Below the pieces are notes generated by a model. The model was not told the DNA's origin. It worked only from the letters and a program-made list of their open reading frames with translations, and did no database searches. From Chloroflexota bacterium (GTDB lineage Bacteria > Chloroflexota > UBA11872), in assembly GCA_026708035.1 (NCBI GenBank), contig JAPOVQ010000001.1, positions 151,970-215,969 on the forward strand: a stretch of DNA of 64,000 bases. Direction: 5' to 3'. A program made the translations under genes and the position numbers. Below, in pieces: positions 3,537-48,937 of this stretch (the first letter of the stretch is position 1; each line of letters opens with the position of its first letter).

Positions 3537-6359
3537 CTAGGCCTGGGCGCTGGTCAGCGAGCGAGATTGGCGGCTGGGTTCTGACTCCAACACCTCGATC
3601 TTGCAGGCGCAGATCTTGTATTCGGGGATCTTGGAAATCGGGTCGAGGGCGTTGATGGTGAGCAAGTTGGCAGCGGCTTCGACGAAATGCCAACCCATGT
3701 AGACGGTGCCCGGCGGGACGCGGCGGGTGATCCAGGCGCGGGCCTCGAGGCTGCCGCGGCGGCTGCTGACGCGCACCAGCCCGCTCTTGGGAATACCGAG
3801 ACGGTCGGCGTCCTCGGGCGACACCTCCACCAGCGGCTCGGGATAGGCGTCGTCGAGCCGGGAGCGGCGGCTGACCGAGCCGGTGTGCCAGTGGTAGAGC
3901 ACCCGACCGGTATTGAAGATGAAGGGATACTCCGCGTCGGGAATCTCCACGTTTTCAGTCCAGTCGATGGGCGTCATGGTGGCCTTGCCGTCGCTGGTGG
4001 GGAAGCGGTCGCCGAATAGCCACAGTGCGCCGGGGTCGGCGTCGTCGAGGCACGGCCAGCGGAGGCCGCCCTCGCGGTCGAGCCGGGCGTGGCTGAGCCC
4101 GGCGTGGCTGGGCGTGAGCCGCGCAATCTCATCAAAGATCTCCGCCGGTGTGCTCAATCCGGGGTCGTAGCCCATCCGCTGGGAGAGGTCTAAGACGATT
4201 TCCCAGTCCTGCCGCGCCTCGCCGGGCGGGTCGAGGATGGGCCGAACCCGTTGCACGCGCCGATCGGTGTTGGTGAAGGTGCCGTCTTTCTCGGCCCAGC
4301 TGGCGGCGGGGAGCACGACGTCGGCGATTTGCGCCGTCTCGGTCATGAAGATGTCCTGCACCGCCAGAAAGTCGATGTGGTTGAAGTGCTCGCGAGCGGC
4401 GTTGAGGTCAGGGTCCGACATGAGCGGGTTCTCACCCATGATGAACATGGCCCGCAGATCTCCGCGCCCCACGGCATCGGCGATTTCCATGGTGGTGAGG
4501 CCCTGGGCCGACGGCAGCGTGACTTCCCAGGCCTTCTCGAACACGCCGCGAACTCCAGGATCCTCGACCGAGCGGTAGTCCGTGAAGTACATCGGAATTG
4601 CGCCCACGTCGCTGGTGCCTTGGACGTTGTTTTGCCCGCGCAGCGGATTGAGTCCCGTTCCGCGCCGGCCGACGTTCCCCGTGGCCAAACAGAGATTGAT
4701 GAGCGTGAGGCAGGCGTCGGTGCCATGCGTCTGCTCGGAAATGCCGACGCCCCAGTAGAACGACGTCTTGCCAGATTCGCCAATGATGTGGGCGGCGCGC
4801 TCGATTTCAGCCGCCGGTATGCCGGTGAGCGCTTCTTGACGCTCGGGCGTCCAGGTGCGCACCGACTCAGCGACGGCATCAAAATCGTTGACCCGCAACG
4901 CTACGAAGTCCTCGTCGACCAGCCCATCGCGGATCACCACATGGAGCAGGGCGTTGTACATGGGCACGTCGGTGCCGGTGCGGAACTGGAGGTGCACGTC
5001 GGCCCAGCGGGTGAGCTCGATGGCACGCGGGTCGGCCACGATCAGCCGTGCCCCGTCACGCACGGCGGCCTTCATCTTGAGGGCCGTGATGGGGTGAGTT
5101 TCGGTGGTGTTCGAGCCAGTGACGAAGATCACGTCGTTCTCGGCGATCTCATCAAGTGAATTGGTGAACGCGCCGGTTCCGAGGGCAATGTCGAGCGCCG
5201 CGACGGACGAGGCGTGGCAGAGCCGAGTGCAGTTGTCGATGTTGTTGGTGTGCAGGGCCGCGCGGGTGAACTTCTGGAGCAGGTAGTTCTCCTCGTTGGT
5301 GCACTTGGAGGAGGCGTAGACCGCCACCGAGCCGGGTCCCTGCGAGTCGCGGTGGTGCGCCAGCCGCTCGGCGGTCAGATCGAGCGCCTCGTCCCAGCTC
5401 GCGCGCCGCCAACGGCCCTCGCCGCGTGCGCCAACCCGAATGAGGGGATGCGTGAGCCGGTCTTCATGCTGCGCGTAGTCCCAGCCGTAGCGGCCCTTGA
5501 CGCAGAGCCAGCCCTGGTTGACCGGGTGATCGTCGGGCGAATCCACGTGGGTGATTGCCCCATCGCGGACGTGGGCGGTGAGGCCACAGCCGACGCCGCA
5601 GAAGGAGCAGGTGGTCTCGACGACGCGATCGTCGGTGAGCCGGCCGCGCCGCTCGGCTTCCCAGTGGGCGCGGCCCTTGAGGGCGCCGCTGGGGCACACC
5701 TGGACGCAGTTGCCGCAGTAGACGCAGGTGGTGTCCATCATGCCGTCGTACTCGGAGGTGCCCACGCGGACCTCGAACCCACGCTCGGCCGGCTCGATGG
5801 CGAAGGTGAACTGCACCTGGTCGCCGCAGACGTCCACACAGCGCCAGCACATGACGCACTTGTTGTAGTCGCGGATGTAGTAGGGGTTGTCGACGTAGAT
5901 CGGAAAGGGCTCGCGCTCGGCGGCGGTGCCGACGGCGAGGCCATATTCGGCGCAGAGGTCCTCCAGCTCCGGCGCTTCGCTGAGGTCGACGCCGCCGAGG
6001 AGCAGTCGCAGGGAACCGCGGCGCGACGCGAGCACGTTGTGGCTGCTCGTGTAGACGACCTGGCCCGGCTCGGCCTTGGCGCGACAGGACGGCAACAGCT
6101 TCGACGCTTGGCGGTCGGGGGCGCCGGGCGGGGGTTCGGCGTGGGAGCCGTCAGGGCTGAGCGACTGTTCCACGACACACAGGCGGCAGTTGGCCGAGGC
6201 CGCCATGTTGGGGTGAAAGCAGAGCGTGGGGACCTCGACGCCGGCCGCGGATGCCGCATCCAGCAGCGTGGCGCCAGCCGGCACCGACACAAGTCGCCCG
6301 TCAATCGTGAGGCTGATGTCTTCGATCGGCACTGCCAATTCCCCGCACCCCTGTAACAA
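3537..6359 (-). CDS. Formate dehydrogenase alpha subunit, NAD-dependent FdsA-type (molybdopterin oxidoreductase with N-terminal 2Fe-2S/NuoG-like domain), Cys-type
   Basis: 940 aa. N-terminal 2Fe-2S ferredoxin-like region (TLCFHPNMAASANCRLCVVE), 4Fe-4S motifs (CVYCGNCVQVCP) and molybdopterin-domain start (TTCSFCGVGCGL). Active-site region NCTRLCHASSVA has Cys where Sec-type FDHs have U, and there is no in-frame stop. Confidence 0.8.
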   Translation of the reverse strand: MLQGCGELAVPIEDISLTIDGRLVSVPAGATLLDAASAAGVEVPTLCFHPNMAASANCRLCVVEQSLSPDGSHAEPPPGAPDRQASKLLPSCRAKAEPGQVVYTSSHNVLASRRGSLRLLLGGVDLSEAPELEDLCAEYGLAVGTAAEREPFPIYVDNPYYIRDYNKCVMCWRCVDVCGDQVQFTFAIEPAERGFEVRVGTSEYDGMMDTTCVYCGNCVQVCPSGALKGRAHWEAERRGRLTDDRVVETTCSFCGVGCGLTAHVRDGAITHVDSPDDHPVNQGWLCVKGRYGWDYAQHEDRLTHPLIRVGARGEGRWRRASWDEALDLTAERLAHHRDSQGPGSVAVYASSKCTNEENYLLQKFTRAALHTNNIDNCTRLCHASSVAALDIALGTGAFTNSLDEIAENDVIFVTGSNTTETHPITALKMKAAVRDGARLIVADPRAIELTRWADVHLQFRTGTDVPMYNALLHVVIRDGLVDEDFVALRVNDFDAVAESVRTWTPERQEALTGIPAAEIERAAHIIGESGKTSFYWGVGISEQTHGTDACLTLINLCLATGNVGRRGTGLNPLRGQNNVQGTSDVGAIPMYFTDYRSVEDPGVRGVFEKAWEVTLPSAQGLTTMEIADAVGRGDLRAMFIMGENPLMSDPDLNAAREHFNHIDFLAVQDIFMTETAQIADVVLPAASWAEKDGTFTNTDRRVQRVRPILDPPGEARQDWEIVLDLSQRMGYDPGLSTPAEIFDEIARLTPSHAGLSHARLDREGGLRWPCLDDADPGALWLFGDRFPTSDGKATMTPIDWTENVEIPDAEYPFIFNTGRVLYHWHTGSVSRRSRLDDAYPEPLVEVSPEDADRLGIPKSGLVRVSSRRGSLEARAWITRRVPPGTVYMGWHFVEAAANLLTINALDPISKIPEYKICACKIEVLESEPSRQSRSLTSAQA

Positions 6360-10113: not shown

Positions 10114-10197
10114 GGGTCGGTGGGTGAGCGGCTAATACCACCGGACTGTAAATCCGGCGCCTTTACGGCTACGTAGGTTCGAATCCTACCCGGCCCA
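10114..10197 (+). tRNA. tRNA-Tyr (anticodon GTA), class II with long variable arm
   Basis: Acceptor GGGTCGG/CCGGCCC; anticodon stem CCGGA/TCCGG with loop CTGTAAA; T-arm GTAGGTTCGAATCCTAC. CCA is not encoded directly. Confidence 0.7.
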
Positions 10198-36176: not shown

Positions 36177-37355
36177 TTGCAAGCCGCAATAACCGTACCC
36201 ATGACCAATTGTGCCGCCGCGCTCGCGCTCCTTTTGGCAATGGCGCTCATGGCGGCCACGTGCGACGCGCCGGTGGACACGCCCGTGGCGATCCCTACAC
36301 CCGGATCTGCTGCCGCGGACCGGGTGGCTCTAGTCGCGCTCTACCACGCGACCGATGGACCGAATTGGACGGACAATCGAAACTGGCTCACCGATGTGCA
36401 CATCGGTGCCTGGTTCGGCGTCACTACCGTCCGCGGTCGGGTCACGGAACTCCGACTCGATGAGAATCAGTTGACCGGCACTATTCCGTCCACGCTGGGC
36501 CGCCTGACAAATCTGAGAAAGCTATCGCTTACATGGAATCAACTGACTGGGGCGATCCCGCCCGATCTCGGTCACCTCGCTCAACTACAAGAACTAGTCC
36601 TGGGTCACAACCAGTTGACTGGCACTATTCCGTCCACGCTGAGCGGCCTGACAAATCTGAAAACGCTCTGGCTCTCTTGGAATCAACTGACTGGAGCGAT
36701 CCAGCCCGATCTGGCCCACCTCACTCAACTGCAAGACTTGGGCCTCAGCAACAACCAGTTGAGCGGCGCCATTCCGTCCTGGCTGGGCAGCCTCGGCAAT
36801 CTGCACTCGCTGTCTCTCGAAGAAAACCAGCTCAGTGGAGCAATCCCGAGGATATTGGGCGACCTCCACAGGCTGCGGCATCTAAATCTCGCTGCCAACC
36901 ATCTGCAGGGGCCGATACCGCGCGAGCTGGGCCTCCTCGCTTCCCTGGAGGTGCTGGACCTGGCCGATAACCAGTTGCGAGGAGATCTTCCTCCCGAACT
37001 TGGTGGCCTCTCCCGACTAACCTCCTTGACGCTCGCCAGGAACAGGCTGCAGGGGGAAATACCACCTGAACTGGGTCGTCTGACCAACTTGAGAAGATTG
37101 TCGCTCGATGGCAACCAACTTCGTGGGACGATTCCGCCCCAACTGGGTAGTCTCACTCACCTAAGGGAGTTGAGCCTCAGAGACAATCGGCTAGACGGGA
37201 AGGTTCCGTCTGACCTGGGCCACTTAGCAAATCTGCAGCATGTGAATCTCGGTAGTACCAATCGACTCACCGGGTGCCTCCCCGCAAGGCTGCGTAACGC
37301 TCGGTTCAACGACCTCGAAGAGTTGGAGTTGCCGTTCTGCTGGTACACCAGTTGA
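36177..37355 (+). CDS. secreted lipoprotein with plant-type leucine-rich repeats (paralog, single module)
   Basis: Same cap/repeat/C-cap architecture (…ALVALYHATDGPNWTDNRNWLTD…; ends GCLPARL…LELPFCWYTS). GC content is visibly lower than the flanks. Confidence 0.7.
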   Translation: MQAAITVPMTNCAAALALLLAMALMAATCDAPVDTPVAIPTPGSAAADRVALVALYHATDGPNWTDNRNWLTDVHIGAWFGVTTVRGRVTELRLDENQLTGTIPSTLGRLTNLRKLSLTWNQLTGAIPPDLGHLAQLQELVLGHNQLTGTIPSTLSGLTNLKTLWLSWNQLTGAIQPDLAHLTQLQDLGLSNNQLSGAIPSWLGSLGNLHSLSLEENQLSGAIPRILGDLHRLRHLNLAANHLQGPIPRELGLLASLEVLDLADNQLRGDLPPELGGLSRLTSLTLARNRLQGEIPPELGRLTNLRRLSLDGNQLRGTIPPQLGSLTHLRELSLRDNRLDGKVPSDLGHLANLQHVNLGSTNRLTGCLPARLRNARFNDLEELELPFCWYTS

Positions 37356-44685: not shown

Positions 44686-45033
44686 CTACAGGTCCTCGAA
44701 CGCGACGTTGGCGGCGTGGACCTCGTCGGCGCAGGCGCGGTCGATGGGGACCGGCGTGGGCAGGTTGTTCTTGGCGATGTAGCCCTTGTCGGCCAGCCAA
44801 GCCTCGACCTCTTCGCCGCTGACGTCGGCCAGCATGCGGCCGTCCACCACCACGCACGGCGACAGCGGCTGCCCGCTCTTGATCACCATCTCGTGGTAGT
44901 TCGTCGGGCTGTTGATGATGTCCTTGTCCTCGTAGCCGAGGTCGTATTTGTCGAGGACGGCGCGGACGCCGGCGCTCCAGCCGCAGACGGGCTTGAGGTA
45001 CGCCACGATCTCAGGCGTTGACTGCGTTGCCAT
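44686..45033 (-). CDS. glutaredoxin-like (thioredoxin-fold, CxxS) protein
   Basis: IVAYLKPVCGWSAGVRAVLD…; start at MATQSTPE (codon 45031..45033). Confidence 0.55.
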   Translation of the reverse strand: MATQSTPEIVAYLKPVCGWSAGVRAVLDKYDLGYEDKDIINSPTNYHEMVIKSGQPLSPCVVVDGRMLADVSGEEVEAWLADKGYIAKNNLPTPVPIDRACADEVHAANVAFEDL

Positions 45034-45240
45034 GGTTTGTCTCCAGGAAAGTCCCGGCGGTGCGGGAAGGTCGTCTCCCAATTGTGTCAAATCGGGGCCG
45101 CAGTCGGTAATGGCGGGGAGTCCGGTCTTGGTTCGACCGGCTCACCACGAACGGCGGGCGGCCCTGCCGGCCCAAGCACCCGGCACCCGAGCCACTGCCG
45201 CCGTCGGTCATACTGGCGCGAACGAAAGGGGAGCATCGAC

Positions 45241-45699
45241 ATGGCAAGACTCAACCTCGGCGATGCGTTTCCAGCGCTGGAGGGTGTGCTGGGCGACGGC
45301 ACGCCGTTCCGAATCCCCAATGATCTGGGGGACCGGCGCACGGCGTTGCTGTTCTACCGCGGCCACTGGTGATCGCACTGTCGCCGGCAGTTGGCCGGCT
45401 ACAACTGGCTGCTCGACACCCTTGACGCGATCGGCGTCGACGTGGTGGGACTCTCCGTCGATCCGCGCGAGGACATCGCGGCGCTGACGGAGCGCCTGGG
45501 GCTCGAGTTCCCACTGGTGGGCGAGTTGGCCTATCCGGACGCCCCCGACGCGGTGGGCGCCTACCGTTTTGAGCGCCGCCGGGCCTTCCAGGCCACGGCC
45601 TTCGTGCTGGACGCCGATCGCCGCGTCGAGGCGGCCGTCTACTCGGCCACCAACGCCGGCCGCCTCACGCCCGAAGAGCTGATGCGCACCTACGGCTGA
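45241..45699 (+). CDS. peroxiredoxin/redoxin (AhpC-TSA)-family protein with in-frame TGA at the peroxidatic-Cys position; candidate selenoprotein (UxxC), or a Cys-to-stop pseudogene
   Basis: A single reading frame joins ORF 45241..45372 to ORF 45391..45699 (both are ≡1 mod 3). Reads …TALLFYRGHW-[TGA 45370..45372]-SHCRRQLAGY…VVGLSVDP…FPLVGEL…AFVLDADRRVE…, a canonical redoxin alignment with U replacing C in WCPxC. Hairpin GCCGGC-AGUUG-GCCGGC begins 11 nt after the UGA. Confidence 0.5.
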
Positions 45700-47502: not shown

Positions 47503-47648
47503 GAACGTCCTCCGTTCAGCACGGACTCACTGACCCAATTGTGACGCACCCGATGCCAGAACGGGCACTCCGACTGACGACTTCTTGACAAGCCTACGGG
47601 GATGGTCAGACAGTCAGGGTAATTCCCCCAGTTGCTTCGGCGGCTGGG

Positions 47649-47683
47649 CAGAGGCCACCCGAGGGTGGCCTCTGCTTTTTCTT
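47649..47683 (+). terminator. terminator-like hairpin plus T-run abutting the NYN gene start
   Basis: CAGAGGCCACCC-GAG-GGTGGCCTCTG followed by CTTTTTCTT. No upstream + strand gene for it to terminate. Confidence 0.45.
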
Positions 47684-47687
47684 GCCA

Positions 47688-48326
47688 ATGCGCACAAATG
47701 TATACGTCGACGGCTTCAACCTGTACTACGGTGCCCTTCGAGGCACGCCTTACAAGTGGTTGGACCTAGAAGAGCTTTGCCGTCGACTCTTAGGATCCCG
47801 ACTCACACTGAGCCGCATTCGCTACTTCACGGCGGACGTGAGGCCCGTTCCGACTGATCGTCAGAAGCATGTGCGTCAGCAGATTTGCCAGCGCGCGCTC
47901 CGAACCATTTCATGCTTGGACATTCACAAGGGCCGCTTCGCACGTGGCTCCCGATGGATGAATCTCGCTGAGCCGGTACCTGGCCTGCCCGACAAGGTTC
48001 GTGTGCAATGCACGGAAGAGAAGGGGTCTGACGTGAATCTGGCGACGTACCTAGTGTTCGATGCTGCGGTCAGAGACTTTCAAGCAGCGGTCGTCGTCTC
48101 CAACGACACCGATCTGGTGGAGCCAATCAAGCTGGTACGACAGGAGTTCAATCGCCCGGTCATGGTTGTCAATCCGCAGCGGAGCCGTAGTGACCGTATG
48201 CGAAAAGCAGCCACGTCGTACGAGCTGCTAGACCAAGAGCTGCTAGCGCAATGCCAATTCCCGCGACACTTGATAGACGTGAGTGGGTCATTCGAAAAGC
48301 CCGCCGCCTGGGAGGAAGCTCGCTAA
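47688..48326 (+). CDS. NYN-domain (LabA-like/PIN-like) putative ribonuclease
   Basis: NVYVDGFNLYYG … KGSDVNLATYLVFDA … VVVSNDTDLVEPI, the conserved acidic residues of NYN/PIN nucleases. Local GC ~55% against ~68% in the flanks. Confidence 0.6.
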   Translation: MRTNVYVDGFNLYYGALRGTPYKWLDLEELCRRLLGSRLTLSRIRYFTADVRPVPTDRQKHVRQQICQRALRTISCLDIHKGRFARGSRWMNLAEPVPGLPDKVRVQCTEEKGSDVNLATYLVFDAAVRDFQAAVVVSNDTDLVEPIKLVRQEFNRPVMVVNPQRSRSDRMRKAATSYELLDQELLAQCQFPRHLIDVSGSFEKPAAWEEAR

Positions 48327-48469
48327 CACTCGGCGGATCTGGCCGTTCGTTCTGGCGTAAGGCGGTCGGCCACGTTCGCCGCCTCGCGACAGCCGGGCAT
48401 CGCGTCTTCCTCCAGAAGAAGACGTGATTGGCCGCTTCTACGATTCGGCCTGCCCTACGCAGCGAGGCC

Positions 48470-48937
48470 TCAGCCCGATAGACACGCCATCACGGGGTCG
48501 TAGTCGGGCAGCTCGGCCACCTCTGGCGCGGTTTCGATGTGCGCGACCTTGCCATCGCCGTCGACGACCACGATCACGCGGTTGGCGATGTTCATGTCCT
48601 CGATCAGCACGCCGTAGGCGCTCGCGGTGGCCCCGAGGGGATTGAAGTCGCTCAGCACCGGATAGCTCACGCCCGACTGCTCGGCCCAGGCCTTCAACGT
48701 CCAGGTGTTGTCGGTCGAGATCGCGACCGTCACCGTGCCCTCGAGTCCACCCAGCTTTTCCGCGATGATCGGCAACTGGTCGCTGCACACCGGCGAGAAC
48801 GCGGCCGGCACGAAATTGATCACCACCGTCGATCCGCGATGGTCGCTCAGCTTGAAGGGCTCGGCGTCCCTGGGGGCCGTCGGAAGCTCGAAGTCCGGGG
48901 CCTCGTCGCCCACTTTCAACGTTGCCGTCTCAGACAT
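48470..48937 (-). CDS. peroxiredoxin (AhpC/TSA family, Cys-type)
   Basis: VGDEAPDFELP … VVINFVPAAFSPVCSDQL …; start at MSETATLK (codon 48935..48937). Confidence 0.75.
   Translation of the reverse strand: MSETATLKVGDEAPDFELPTAPRDAEPFKLSDHRGSTVVINFVPAAFSPVCSDQLPIIAEKLGGLEGTVTVAISTDNTWTLKAWAEQSGVSYPVLSDFNPLGATASAYGVLIEDMNIANRVIVVVDGDGKVAHIETAPEVAELPDYDPVMACLSG

What the first reader, a model, noticed from the sequence alone, without database searches (positions are those of the whole stretch)
45241..45699. Redoxin/peroxiredoxin-family gene with in-frame TGA at the peroxidatic Cys: candidate selenoprotein
Two adjacent + strand ORFs (45241..45372 and 45391..45699) are in the same frame, separated only by TGA at 45370..45372. 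Read through, the product is a colinear AhpC/TSA-redoxin domain with the TGA exactly where the first Cys of the F-Y-R-G-H-W-C-P-x-C box sits (…LLFYRGHW-U-SHC…). Downstream residues retain the family pattern (VVGLSVDP, FPLVGEL, AFVLDADRRVE). A GC hairpin (GCCGGC-AGUUG-GCCGGC, 45383..45399) starts 11 nt after the UGA, the position and loop type (G-U in the apical loop) expected of a bacterial SECIS. A Cys-type Prx (48470..48937) and a Grx-like gene (44686..45033) are nearby. The alternative is a TGC-to-TGA pseudogene.
Basis: partly seen in the sequence, partly recalled or inferred. Interest (0 to 1): 0.8.

Follow-up and report, generated by a model that had tools for sequence, protein, structure and literature searches.

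The report
Selenocysteine redoxin gene, split by annotators
This is very probably a real gene for a small selenium-containing redox protein of an already known family (peroxiredoxin-like, U-x-x-C active site), which gene-finding programs cut in two at its UGA selenocysteine codon; it is a sound call but an ordinary one.

Summary
Window 45241..45699 (+) is one 152-codon AhpC/TSA-fold reading frame interrupted only by TGA at 45370..45372, followed by the hairpin GCCGGC-AGUUG-GCCGGC (45383..45399). It is not a pseudogene. The same TGA is present in 74 of 88 homologous loci from Chloroflexota, Gemmatimonadota, Proteobacteria, Nitrospinota and others, and 11 loci have TGC/TGT there. Both halves are under purifying selection (dN/dS 0.02-0.45). 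The hairpin is kept by compensatory changes in 39 distinct TGA sequences (96.6% paired, 5 of 6 pairs covary, 0/500 shuffles reach this) and is absent from the Cys forms. TGA also ends 15 of 38 window ORFs, including this gene, so recoding is local rather than a code change.

One correction is needed. Sec44 aligns with the Thr of the peroxiredoxin P-x-x-x-T-x-x-C motif. Cys47 sits at the peroxidatic position, and the Prx Pro and Arg are absent. The gene therefore belongs to the known, functionally uncharacterised 'Prx-like thiol:disulfide oxidoreductase' selenoprotein family (pfam00578, UxxC), not to Sec-peroxiredoxin. selA, selB, selD and tRNA-Sec were not found in the window or fetched loci, and the rest of the genome could not be searched.

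Verdict: a genuine selenoprotein gene and a new member of a known kind.

The parts
45228..45233 (+). Shine-Dalgarno-like GGGGAG, 7 nt upstream of the ATG at 45241
   Evidence: Read directly from the sequence. No comparable motif precedes the TTG at 45391, the start that gene callers use for the '102-aa' fragment.
45241..45699 (+). Complete selenoprotein CDS: 152 codons plus stop (TGA 45697-45699). It encodes a Prx-like (AhpC/TSA fold) thiol:disulfide oxidoreductase with a U44-S-H-C47 active site.
   Evidence: Translation. Pfam PF00578 matches residues 7-130 across the TGA. Colinear read-through orthologues are 55-97% identical. dN/dS is 0.06-0.41 for codons 1-43 and 0.02-0.45 for codons 45-152.
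45370..45372 (+). In-frame UGA, predicted selenocysteine codon (Sec44)
   Evidence: TGA is at the homologous codon in 74 of 88 sources. It is TGC/TGT in 11 sources and TAA in one lineage of 3. Full-length Cys homologues read FYRGHW-C-PYC.
45370..45381 (+). Redox motif U-S-H-C (thioredoxin-like UxxC). Cys47 (45379-45381) is at the Prx peroxidatic position.
   Evidence: phmmer alignments to 5epf and 5xbs pair U44 with Thr and C47 with Cys of Prx TxxC. C47 is invariant in the orthologues, and CAC/CAT and TGT/TGC vary synonymously.
45379..45403 (+). Bacterial SECIS-like stem-loop. Upper stem 45383-45388 pairs with 45394-45399, the apical loop AGUUG is at 45389-45393, and a 3-bp lower stem (45379-81 with 45401-03) is seen in this clade only.
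   Evidence: MFE is -15.1 kcal/mol. In 39 distinct TGA-form sequences 96.6% of cells are paired, 5 of 6 pairs show double changes, and 0 of 500 shuffles reach the observed values; slid controls give 13-54% paired. Cys forms form only 2-4 of the 6 pairs. The loop is AGUUG in 31 of 39, and the rare Leu codon TTG is retained.
45391..45699 (+). Spurious '102-aa ORF', the fragment that public gene calls report instead of the full gene
   Evidence: All 12 database homologues are 92-135-aa C-terminal fragments covering at most 67% of the read-through protein. Called genes on contigs are always a 43-aa ORF plus a 96-102-aa ORF.
44686..45033 (-). Divergently transcribed glutaredoxin-like gene (C-G-W-S motif). 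This is context and a possible redox partner by inference.
   Evidence: PF00462, E 2.1e-08. It lies next to the U-redoxin, 239-467 nt from the aligned TGA codon, in all 42 Chloroflexota orthologue loci of at least 55% identity and in none of the other loci.
48470..48937 (-). Cys-type peroxiredoxin (Tpx/AhpC-TSA), context only
   Evidence: PF00578 E 3.4e-28 and PF08534 E 1.1e-25. It is present 2.3-5.2 kb downstream in most orthologue loci.

Best explanation
Window 45241..45699 is one intact gene for a 152-residue selenoprotein of the 'Prx-like thiol:disulfide oxidoreductase' family. It has a peroxiredoxin/AhpC-TSA fold and a thioredoxin-like U-x-x-C active site.

During translation the UGA at 45370 is read as selenocysteine. 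The mRNA hairpin that starts 10 nt after it (GCCGGC-AGUUG-GCCGGC, a bacterial SECIS) recruits SelB carrying Sec-tRNASec. The same codon without such a hairpin ends this gene at 45697.

The product most likely works as a thiol/selenol-disulfide oxidoreductase. Sec44 lies just before the first helix of the Trx-fold core and is the attacking nucleophile. It forms a selenenylsulfide with Cys47, which is then re-reduced by a thiol partner. That partner may be the conserved, divergently transcribed Grx-like protein.

Shown here:
- one conserved reading frame across the TGA;
- a Sec/Cys pair at the active site;
- a covarying SECIS-like hairpin;
- the Prx fold of the Cys homologue.

Inferred, not shown:
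- actual Sec insertion;
- the presence of selA/selB/selC/selD in this genome;
- the selenenylsulfide cycle, the substrate and the reductant.
For: 1. One frame: Pfam AhpC-TSA spans the TGA. Read-through products of orthologues are colinear and ungapped, and LLFYRGHW-U-SHCRRQL is invariant within the Chloroflexota clade.
2. Conserved TGA with Cys homologues: TGA in 74 of 88 sources from at least 6 phylum-level groups, TGC/TGT in 11 (for example Ktedonobacter). Full-length Cys forms of 160-170 aa carry FYRGxWCPYC.
3. Translation continues past the TGA. dN/dS is 0.02-0.45 downstream and 0.06-0.41 upstream. The 18 nt between the TGA and the supposed restart codon encode the conserved S-H-C-R-R-Q with synonymous variation. 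There is a Shine-Dalgarno motif before the ATG at 45241 and none before 45391.
4. SECIS: 6-bp stem and 5-nt G/U-containing loop at a fixed distance from the UGA. In 39 distinct sequences 96.6% of cells are paired, 34 cells show double changes (for example pair 15-29: GC 16, CG 15, UA 7), and 0 of 500 shuffles reach the observed values. The hairpin is missing in Cys forms although the peptide there is similar.
5. No code reassignment: TGA terminates 15 of 38 window ORFs, including this one.
6. Fold: the AlphaFold model of Cys homologue P0017 has pLDDT 92.4, with the CxxC at the N-terminus of helix 50-61. The best PDB matches are Bcp/PrxQ and Prx6-type peroxiredoxins (TM about 0.8), and ResA also matches.
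7. The family is already catalogued as a selenoprotein family defined by pfam00578 plus UxxC (PMC1088965; PMC2398784; PMC9312934; PMC13188914). Chloroflexota/Dehalococcoidia include very selenoprotein-rich genomes (PMC13326102).
Against: - No selA, selB, selD or tRNA-Sec was found in the 64-kb window, in about 10 kb beyond its left end, or in loci L001-L087. The remaining roughly 3 Mb of the genome could not be searched.
- No other selenoprotein gene is present in the window, and the FdhA-like gene there is Cys-type.
- The hairpin is short. On this single sequence its stability is only marginally better than shuffles (z -1.9; z -0.63 for 61 nt).
- No Rfam family matches it.
- No experimental data exist for this family. 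The literature lists it as predicted with unknown function.
Confidence: 0.9

Rival explanations
1. Pseudogene: a Cys-type redoxin gene inactivated by a TGC-to-TGA mutation. Only a 43-residue stub is made, or nothing.
For: A TGA in the middle of a domain is what a nonsense mutation looks like in a single sequence. No Sec machinery was seen in the sequence available. One related lineage (L041-L043) has TAA at this codon, showing that nonsense changes can occur here.
Against: The TGA is at exactly this codon in 74 of 88 homologous sources, down to 34% identity and across phyla. There are no frameshifts or further stops. dN/dS downstream of the TGA is 0.02-0.45. The downstream hairpin is maintained by compensatory substitutions.
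Confidence: 0.02
2. The UGA is passed without selenocysteine. Either a near-cognate tRNA inserts Cys or Trp (leaky stop), or the gene is expressed as two polypeptides (43 aa plus about 102 aa, restarting at TTG 45391) that assemble.
For: Sec insertion itself is not demonstrated and the machinery was not located. Gene callers do find a start codon (TTG 45391) 18 nt after the stop.
Against: The restart codon lies in the hairpin loop, has no Shine-Dalgarno motif, and is not the called start in all orthologues (96-aa calls in L006/L007). The codons between the TGA and the TTG encode invariant S-H-C with synonymous variation, so they are translated. A split would remove Cys47 from both pieces. A covarying stem-loop at fixed distance that occurs only in TGA forms is the signature of SelB-dependent recoding, not of leakiness.
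Confidence: 0.05
3. One reading: a true peroxiredoxin in which Sec replaces the peroxidatic Cys, like PrxU with its TxxU motif, and reduces peroxides by the standard Prx mechanism.
For: There is AhpC-TSA/Redoxin domain membership. The closest folds are Bcp/PrxQ and Prx6 peroxiredoxins. JGI annotates Cys homologues as 'peroxiredoxin'. A Cys-type Prx and a Grx-like gene lie nearby.
Against: Alignments to solved Prx structures place U44 on the conserved Thr and C47 on the peroxidatic Cys. The Prx Pro is R40 and the Prx Arg position is A118. NCBIfam PrxU (NF040737) gives no hit to the window protein at E up to 0.01, and no peroxiredoxin equivalog comes near its cut-off (best 23.8 bits against a cut-off of 140). 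The literature separates this UxxC family from Sec-Prx (TxxU) (PMC1088965). Peroxidase activity through a Sec44 selenenic acid resolved by Cys47 remains chemically possible, but it would not be the Prx mechanism.
Confidence: 0.1

Closest known systems
Prx-like thiol:disulfide oxidoreductase selenoproteins ('Prx-like 1': pfam00578, UxxC/UxxU), reported from Geobacter, Syntrophus and Desulfotalea and from the Sargasso Sea and GOS metagenomes (PMC1088965, PMC2398784, PMC1794560, PMC9312934)
   Same: AhpC/TSA domain. Thioredoxin-like UxxC in place of Prx TxxC. Numerous CxxC Cys homologues. A SECIS hairpin with a small G-containing apical loop immediately downstream of the UGA. A predicted redox function that has not been characterised.
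   Different: This sequence and its Chloroflexota clade are only distantly related at sequence level to anything carrying a curated model (no NCBIfam family above cut-off). I could not compare it directly with the reference protein WP_010940744.1. The clade has its own conserved Grx-like/U-redoxin/Ldh-like/HpcH-aldolase gene order.
Sec-containing peroxiredoxin PrxU (TxxU; NCBIfam NF040737) and canonical Prx/BCP/PrxQ
   Same: Same fold (Foldseek TM about 0.8 to 3hjp and 5epf) and the same Pfam family. A Cys is retained at the peroxidatic position.
   Different: Sec is three residues upstream, at the Thr position. The catalytic Pro, Thr and Arg are replaced (R40, U44, A118). There is no hit to NF040737.
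CxxC thiol-disulfide oxidoreductases of the TlpA/ResA/CcmG type
   Same: Trx-fold core with W-C-x-x-C at the N-terminus of a helix. There are weak sequence and fold matches (ResA 4nmu E 0.0016; 4nmu and 2h1g).
   Different: There is no signal peptide or membrane anchor in the window protein. It is closer in fold to Prx. NCBIfam ResA gives 19.3 bits against a cut-off of 170.
SelL-related redox proteins (NCBIfam NF040769) / eukaryotic SelL (UxxU, Prx-like)
   Same: A Prx-like fold with a redox motif in which Sec occupies the CxxC positions.
   Different: The score is 17.9 bits against a cut-off of 120, and Cys homologues score 20-35 bits. It is not a member.
E. coli fdhF-type bacterial SECIS
   Same: A stem-loop within the coding region beginning about 10-11 nt after the UGA, with a small apical loop containing G-U. 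The minimal-element spacing of 11 nt is recalled from memory (Liu et al. 1998). The general features are cited from PMC1088965.
   Different: The stem is shorter (6 bp plus an optional 3 bp), there is no bulged U, and the loop sequence AGUUG differs. No Rfam model matches.

Membership tests
Prx-like thiol:disulfide oxidoreductase selenoprotein family (pfam00578, UxxC) | AhpC/TSA (PF00578) domain | tested here: met
   PF00578 E 1.5e-14, 54.5 bits against a cut-off of 26, residues 7-130. The Cys-homologue model has a Prx fold.
Prx-like thiol:disulfide oxidoreductase selenoprotein family (pfam00578, UxxC) | [quoted passage not shown] | tested here: met
   The motif is W-U-S-H-C. U aligns to Thr and C47 to Cys of Prx TxxC.
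Prx-like thiol:disulfide oxidoreductase selenoprotein family (pfam00578, UxxC) | Cys-containing homologues with Cys aligned to Sec, and conserved flanks on both sides | tested here: met
   11 sources have TGC/TGT at the codon. 160-170-aa proteins carry FYRGHWCPYC.
Prx-like thiol:disulfide oxidoreductase selenoprotein family (pfam00578, UxxC) | Bacterial SECIS: a stable stem-loop just downstream of the UGA with a small apical loop containing G | tested here: met
   -15.1 kcal/mol. Covariation in 39 sequences, with 0 of 500 shuffles reaching the observed values. Absent in Cys forms.
Prx-like thiol:disulfide oxidoreductase selenoprotein family (pfam00578, UxxC) | Host genome has the Sec-decoding trait (selA, selB, selC, selD) | not testable with these tools
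   None was found in the window, in loci L001-L087, or in the 10-kb left flank.
Prx-like thiol:disulfide oxidoreductase selenoprotein family (pfam00578, UxxC) | Selenium actually incorporated at the UGA | not testable with these tools
   This needs 75Se labelling or mass spectrometry.
Canonical peroxiredoxin / Sec-peroxiredoxin PrxU | Catalytic P-x-x-x-T-x-x-C(U) motif with the reactive Cys/Sec at the last position | tested here: not met
   The motif here is R40-G-H-W-U44-S-H-C47. Pro is replaced by Arg and Thr by Sec, and the Sec is not at the peroxidatic position.
Canonical peroxiredoxin / Sec-peroxiredoxin PrxU | Conserved active-site Arg (R-x-x-F-x-I/V-D region) | tested here: not met
   The Arg of 5epf (KRTTFVID) and of 5xbs (VRGVFIVD) aligns with A118 in FQATAFVLD. 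The family consensus is YLQxTGFVL.
Canonical peroxiredoxin / Sec-peroxiredoxin PrxU | Score above the NCBIfam equivalog cut-offs for Prx families | tested here: not met
   The best is PRK09437 at 23.8 bits against a cut-off of 140. There is no PrxU hit.
SelL-related redox protein (NF040769) | Score at or above the curated cut-off of 120 bits | tested here: not met
   17.9 bits.
Pseudogene (nonsense-inactivated Cys redoxin) | Orthologues carry TGC and this copy shows relaxed constraint or other lesions | tested here: not met
   All 42 syntenic Chloroflexota orthologue loci carry TGA. dN/dS is well below 1 on both sides of the TGA. There are no other stops or frameshifts.

The most novel reading that the evidence does not exclude
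In this Chloroflexota clade, which is probably sponge-associated, the U-redoxin and the divergently transcribed monothiol (C-G-W-S) glutaredoxin-like gene may form a dedicated two-component selenenylsulfide/thiol relay. The pair is adjacent in all 42 orthologue loci. Its substrate would be neither a peroxide nor a general protein disulfide and might be tied to the co-conserved Ldh-like/HpcH-aldolase genes. That would be a new selenium-dependent pathway rather than a generic antioxidant. A second unexcluded reading lies outside the window: the TAA at the Sec codon in L041-L043 could be decoded as Sec by a UAA-reading tRNA-Sec.
Probability: 0.15. Interest if true: 0.45.

Novelty: new member of a known kind. 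Interest (0 to 1): 0.3.

Why it matters
Mainly this is an annotation correction. Every public gene call found for this gene and its orthologues (12 of 12 database proteins, and every contig inspected) reports a 43-aa ORF and a roughly 100-aa ORF instead of one 152-aa selenoprotein. The protein and its active site are therefore invisible to protein-based analyses of these Chloroflexota MAGs.

It also implies that this lineage uses selenocysteine. It supplies a clean, covariation-supported SECIS consensus (NNNNNC-AGUUG-GNNNNN starting 10 nt after the UGA) shared across phyla, which could be used to find further members.

It does not change what is known about selenoproteins. The family has been catalogued since 2004-2005 and remains functionally uncharacterised.

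Tried and rejected
- Read-through protein in restricted tools. I used the exact post-TGA fragment 45373..45696 instead. It still recovered both truncated Sec forms and full-length Cys forms.
- Sec machinery. ARAGORN on the window and loci L001-L087 found no tRNA-Sec. tblastn with E. coli SelA/SelB/SelD against the window and loci L001-L087 gave only a weak GTPase hit for SelB in L083. Extending the window by 10 kb on the left found nothing relevant. The right-end look-up found no record. I ran no further search on SelD. A distant query would return only the 120 best hits from unrelated taxa and could not be tied to this genome.
- Rfam. There is no SECIS or other family at the site.
- Single-sequence folding of 61 nt is not significant (z -0.63), so I did not rely on it.
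- A 93-nt 'tRNA-Glu(CUC)' called by ARAGORN 1.3 kb downstream of the orthologue in L015 looked like a possible tRNA-Sec-like gene. It lies inside the HpcH-aldolase coding sequence and Rfam finds no tRNA there, so it is a false positive.
- Other in-frame TGAs in the window (13502+, 60213-, 57561+, 13371-, 13041-) are ordinary gene ends or wrong-frame artefacts.
- Genetic-code reassignment of UGA was rejected, because TGA ends 15 of 38 ORFs.
- BSepDB supplements were not available for checking these MAGs.

Full report
**Observation**

Window 45241..45699 (+) translates to MARLNLGDAFPALEGVLGDGTPFRIPNDLGDRRTALLFYRGHW*SHCRRQLAGYNWLL...EELMRTYG*. There is one internal stop, TGA at 45370..45372.

With Cys substituted for the stop, Pfam AhpC-TSA (PF00578) matches residues 7-130 of 152, on both sides of the stop (E 1.5e-14).

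A Shine-Dalgarno-like GGGGAG lies 7 nt before the ATG at 45241. Nothing comparable precedes the TTG at 45391.

GC3 in this frame is 0.82 upstream and 0.90 downstream of the TGA. A scan of all TGAs in the window found no other credible in-frame case.

The hairpin GCCGGC-AGUUG-GCCGGC is at 45383..45399. With a 3-bp lower stem it folds at -15.1 kcal/mol, z -1.9. A longer 61-nt stretch is not better than shuffles.

**Is it a pseudogene?**

No. A search of 5.8 billion proteins returned only 12 relatives. All are 92-135-aa C-terminal fragments, which means other gene callers were stopped at the same place.

Contigs carrying them always show a 43-aa ORF followed 18-36 nt later by a 96-102-aa ORF, in the same gene order: Grx-like, the redoxin, an Ldh-like dehydrogenase, then an HpcH/HpaI aldolase.

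Read through, these are colinear 152-residue proteins with LLFYRGHW-TGA-SHCRRQL invariant.

A scan of one genome per GTDB species gave 80 further loci. The codon aligned to the window's TGA breaks down as follows across the 88 sources:

| Codon | Sources | Where |
|---|---|---|
| TGA | 74 | Chloroflexota including SAR202/Dehalococcoidia, Gemmatimonadota, Alpha- and Gammaproteobacteria, Nitrospinota, a Tectimicrobiota bin |
| TGC/TGT | 11 | Ktedonobacter and others |
| TAA | 3 | one lineage (L041-L043) |

An exhaustive HMMER search with the post-TGA fragment likewise found two groups. One is about 100-aa truncated forms. The other is 160-170-aa full-length proteins with FYRGHWCPYC or FYRGSWCPYC.

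Nei-Gojobori comparisons of the window gene with 15 orthologues give dN/dS of 0.06-0.41 for codons 1-43 and 0.02-0.45 for codons 45-152. Both parts are therefore translated in this frame.

The six codons between the TGA and the supposed restart encode conserved S-H-C-R-R-Q, with synonymous CAC/CAT and TGT/TGC variation.

TGA also terminates 15 of 38 window ORFs, including this gene itself. The recoding is therefore local, not a reassigned genetic code.

**SECIS**

In 39 distinct TGA-form sequences aligned without gaps from the TGA (alignment A2), columns 14-19 pair with columns 25-30 in 96.6% of cells.

- Five of six pairs show changes on both sides. For example, pair 15-29 is GC in 16, CG in 15 and UA in 7 sequences.
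- None of 500 column shuffles reaches the observed values.
- Sliding the 3' arm by 1-3 nt drops pairing to 13-54%.
- The loop is AGUUG in 31 of 39, so the rare Leu codon TTG is retained there.
- The Cys forms form only 2-4 of the 6 pairs and use AATTG, AACTG, ACCTG and similar, although they encode a similar C-R-x-Q-L peptide.

A stem-loop at a fixed short distance after the UGA, with a small G-containing apical loop, kept by compensatory change and present only when the codon is UGA, matches the published description of bacterial SECIS elements (PMC1088965). No Rfam model matches it.

**What kind of protein**

phmmer alignments to solved peroxiredoxins (5epf, 5xbs) give the following correspondence with the Prx F-Y-P-x-x-x-T-x-x-C motif and active-site Arg:

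| Prx catalytic position | Window protein |
|---|---|
| Pro | Arg40 |
| Thr | Sec44 |
| Peroxidatic Cys | Cys47 |
| Active-site Arg (KRTTFVID / VRGVFIVD) | Ala118 in FQATAFVLD |

So the Sec is not at the peroxidatic position, as the finding's title says. It is at the first position of a thioredoxin-like CxxC.

An AlphaFold model of the closest full-length Cys homologue (P0017) has pLDDT 92.4. It places the CxxC at the N-terminus of helix 50-61. It matches Bcp/PrxQ and Prx6-type peroxiredoxins best (TM about 0.8), and ResA-type oxidoreductases also match.

No NCBIfam model reaches its cut-off for the window protein or for six Cys homologues. SelL-related gives 17.9-34.6 bits against a cut-off of 120, and the Prx equivalogs are far below theirs.

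The literature describes exactly this combination as a separate selenoprotein family:

- 'Prx-like 1, pfam00578, UxxC', with 225 sequences in GOS (PMC2398784).

**Mechanism (inferred)**

SelB carrying Sec-tRNASec binds the 45383-45399 hairpin and decodes UGA 45370 as Sec. The product cycles between a selenol/thiol and a Sec44-Cys47 selenenylsulfide, with Sec as the exposed nucleophile, as in other UxxC thioredoxin-fold selenoproteins.

The reductant and the substrate are unknown. The Grx-like gene (CGWS motif) is adjacent and divergent in all 42 Chloroflexota orthologue loci of at least 55% identity, and in none of the more distant loci. A partnership is therefore plausible but specific to this clade.

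**What could not be shown**

No tRNA-Sec, selA, selB or selD is present in the window, in loci L001-L087, or in 10 kb beyond the window's left end.

The window corresponds to about 151,968-215,967 of ENA ERZ23500143 SHAF22-1_SAMEA7723695 scaffold_6, which is 336,637 bp long. The rest of that genome was out of reach.

Published surveys show that Chloroflexota/Dehalococcoidia include some of the most selenoprotein-rich bacterial genomes (PMC13326102). The trait is therefore unsurprising in the phylum, but this is context, not proof for this genome.

**Verdict**

This is a genuine, mis-annotated selenoprotein gene and a new member of a known family. Interest is modest.

Noticed in passing
L041, L042, L043 position 10130-10132 (OZ244593.1, OZ253578.1, CAXXFA010000002.1): These Chloroflexota genomes have TAA, not TGA or TGC, at the Sec codon of an otherwise intact homologue (46% identical to the window protein). 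The three loci are about 99% identical to each other, so this is one event. Their nearest relatives (L093-L096, P0014 group) have TGA with the same 4-bp stem. It is either a very recent nonsense mutation or UAA read as Sec.
   Followed up: partly
window 45241-45372 and 45391-45699; loci L001-L007, L090-L096: Every public gene call found for this gene family's Sec forms is split into a 43-aa ORF and a 96-102-aa ORF. All 12 hits in the 5.8-billion-protein collection are C-terminal fragments, most without a Pfam assignment.
   Followed up: yes
window 3537-6359 (-): A 940-aa formate-dehydrogenase-alpha-like protein (Fer2_4, Fer4, Molybdop_Fe4S4, Molybdopterin and Molydop_binding by the precomputed Pfam list) has Cys (CTRLCHASS) at the position where Sec-type FdhA has U. 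The most common bacterial selenoprotein is therefore Cys-type here.
   Followed up: partly
window 36177-37355 (+): A 392-aa protein made almost entirely of leucine-rich repeats (LRR_8 E 5e-35). Such eukaryote-like repeat proteins are typical of host-associated bacteria. Many related MAG names (COS, RHO, jk18x, SB0662 bins) look like sponge metagenome bins, but that is an inference from the names only.
   Followed up: no
window 47503-48469 (NYN-domain gene 47682-48326 +): The interval between the HpcH aldolase and the Cys-type Prx varies among orthologue loci: the Prx lies 2.3-5.2 kb from the Sec codon. In the window this interval holds a NYN-domain (PF01936) gene, which suggests a variable insertion spot.
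   Followed up: no
L015 11790-11882: ARAGORN calls a 93-nt 'tRNA-Glu (CUC)' here. It lies inside the HpcH-aldolase coding sequence and Rfam finds no tRNA, so it is a false positive.
   Followed up: yes
L009 and L025 (both MAG jk18x1bzbins.9, JAJDUU01): The same MAG carries two versions of the whole Grx/U-redoxin/Ldh/HpcH block, 97% and 64% identical to the window protein. It is probably a mixed bin rather than a case of paralogues.
   Followed up: no
window 45391-45393 and the homologous codon in all TGA-form loci: In a genome with about 90% GC3, the Leu codon in the hairpin loop is TTG in nearly all Sec forms (TTA in a few). Cys forms use CTG, CTC or TTG. This is a clear case of RNA structure overriding codon bias.
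   Followed up: yes
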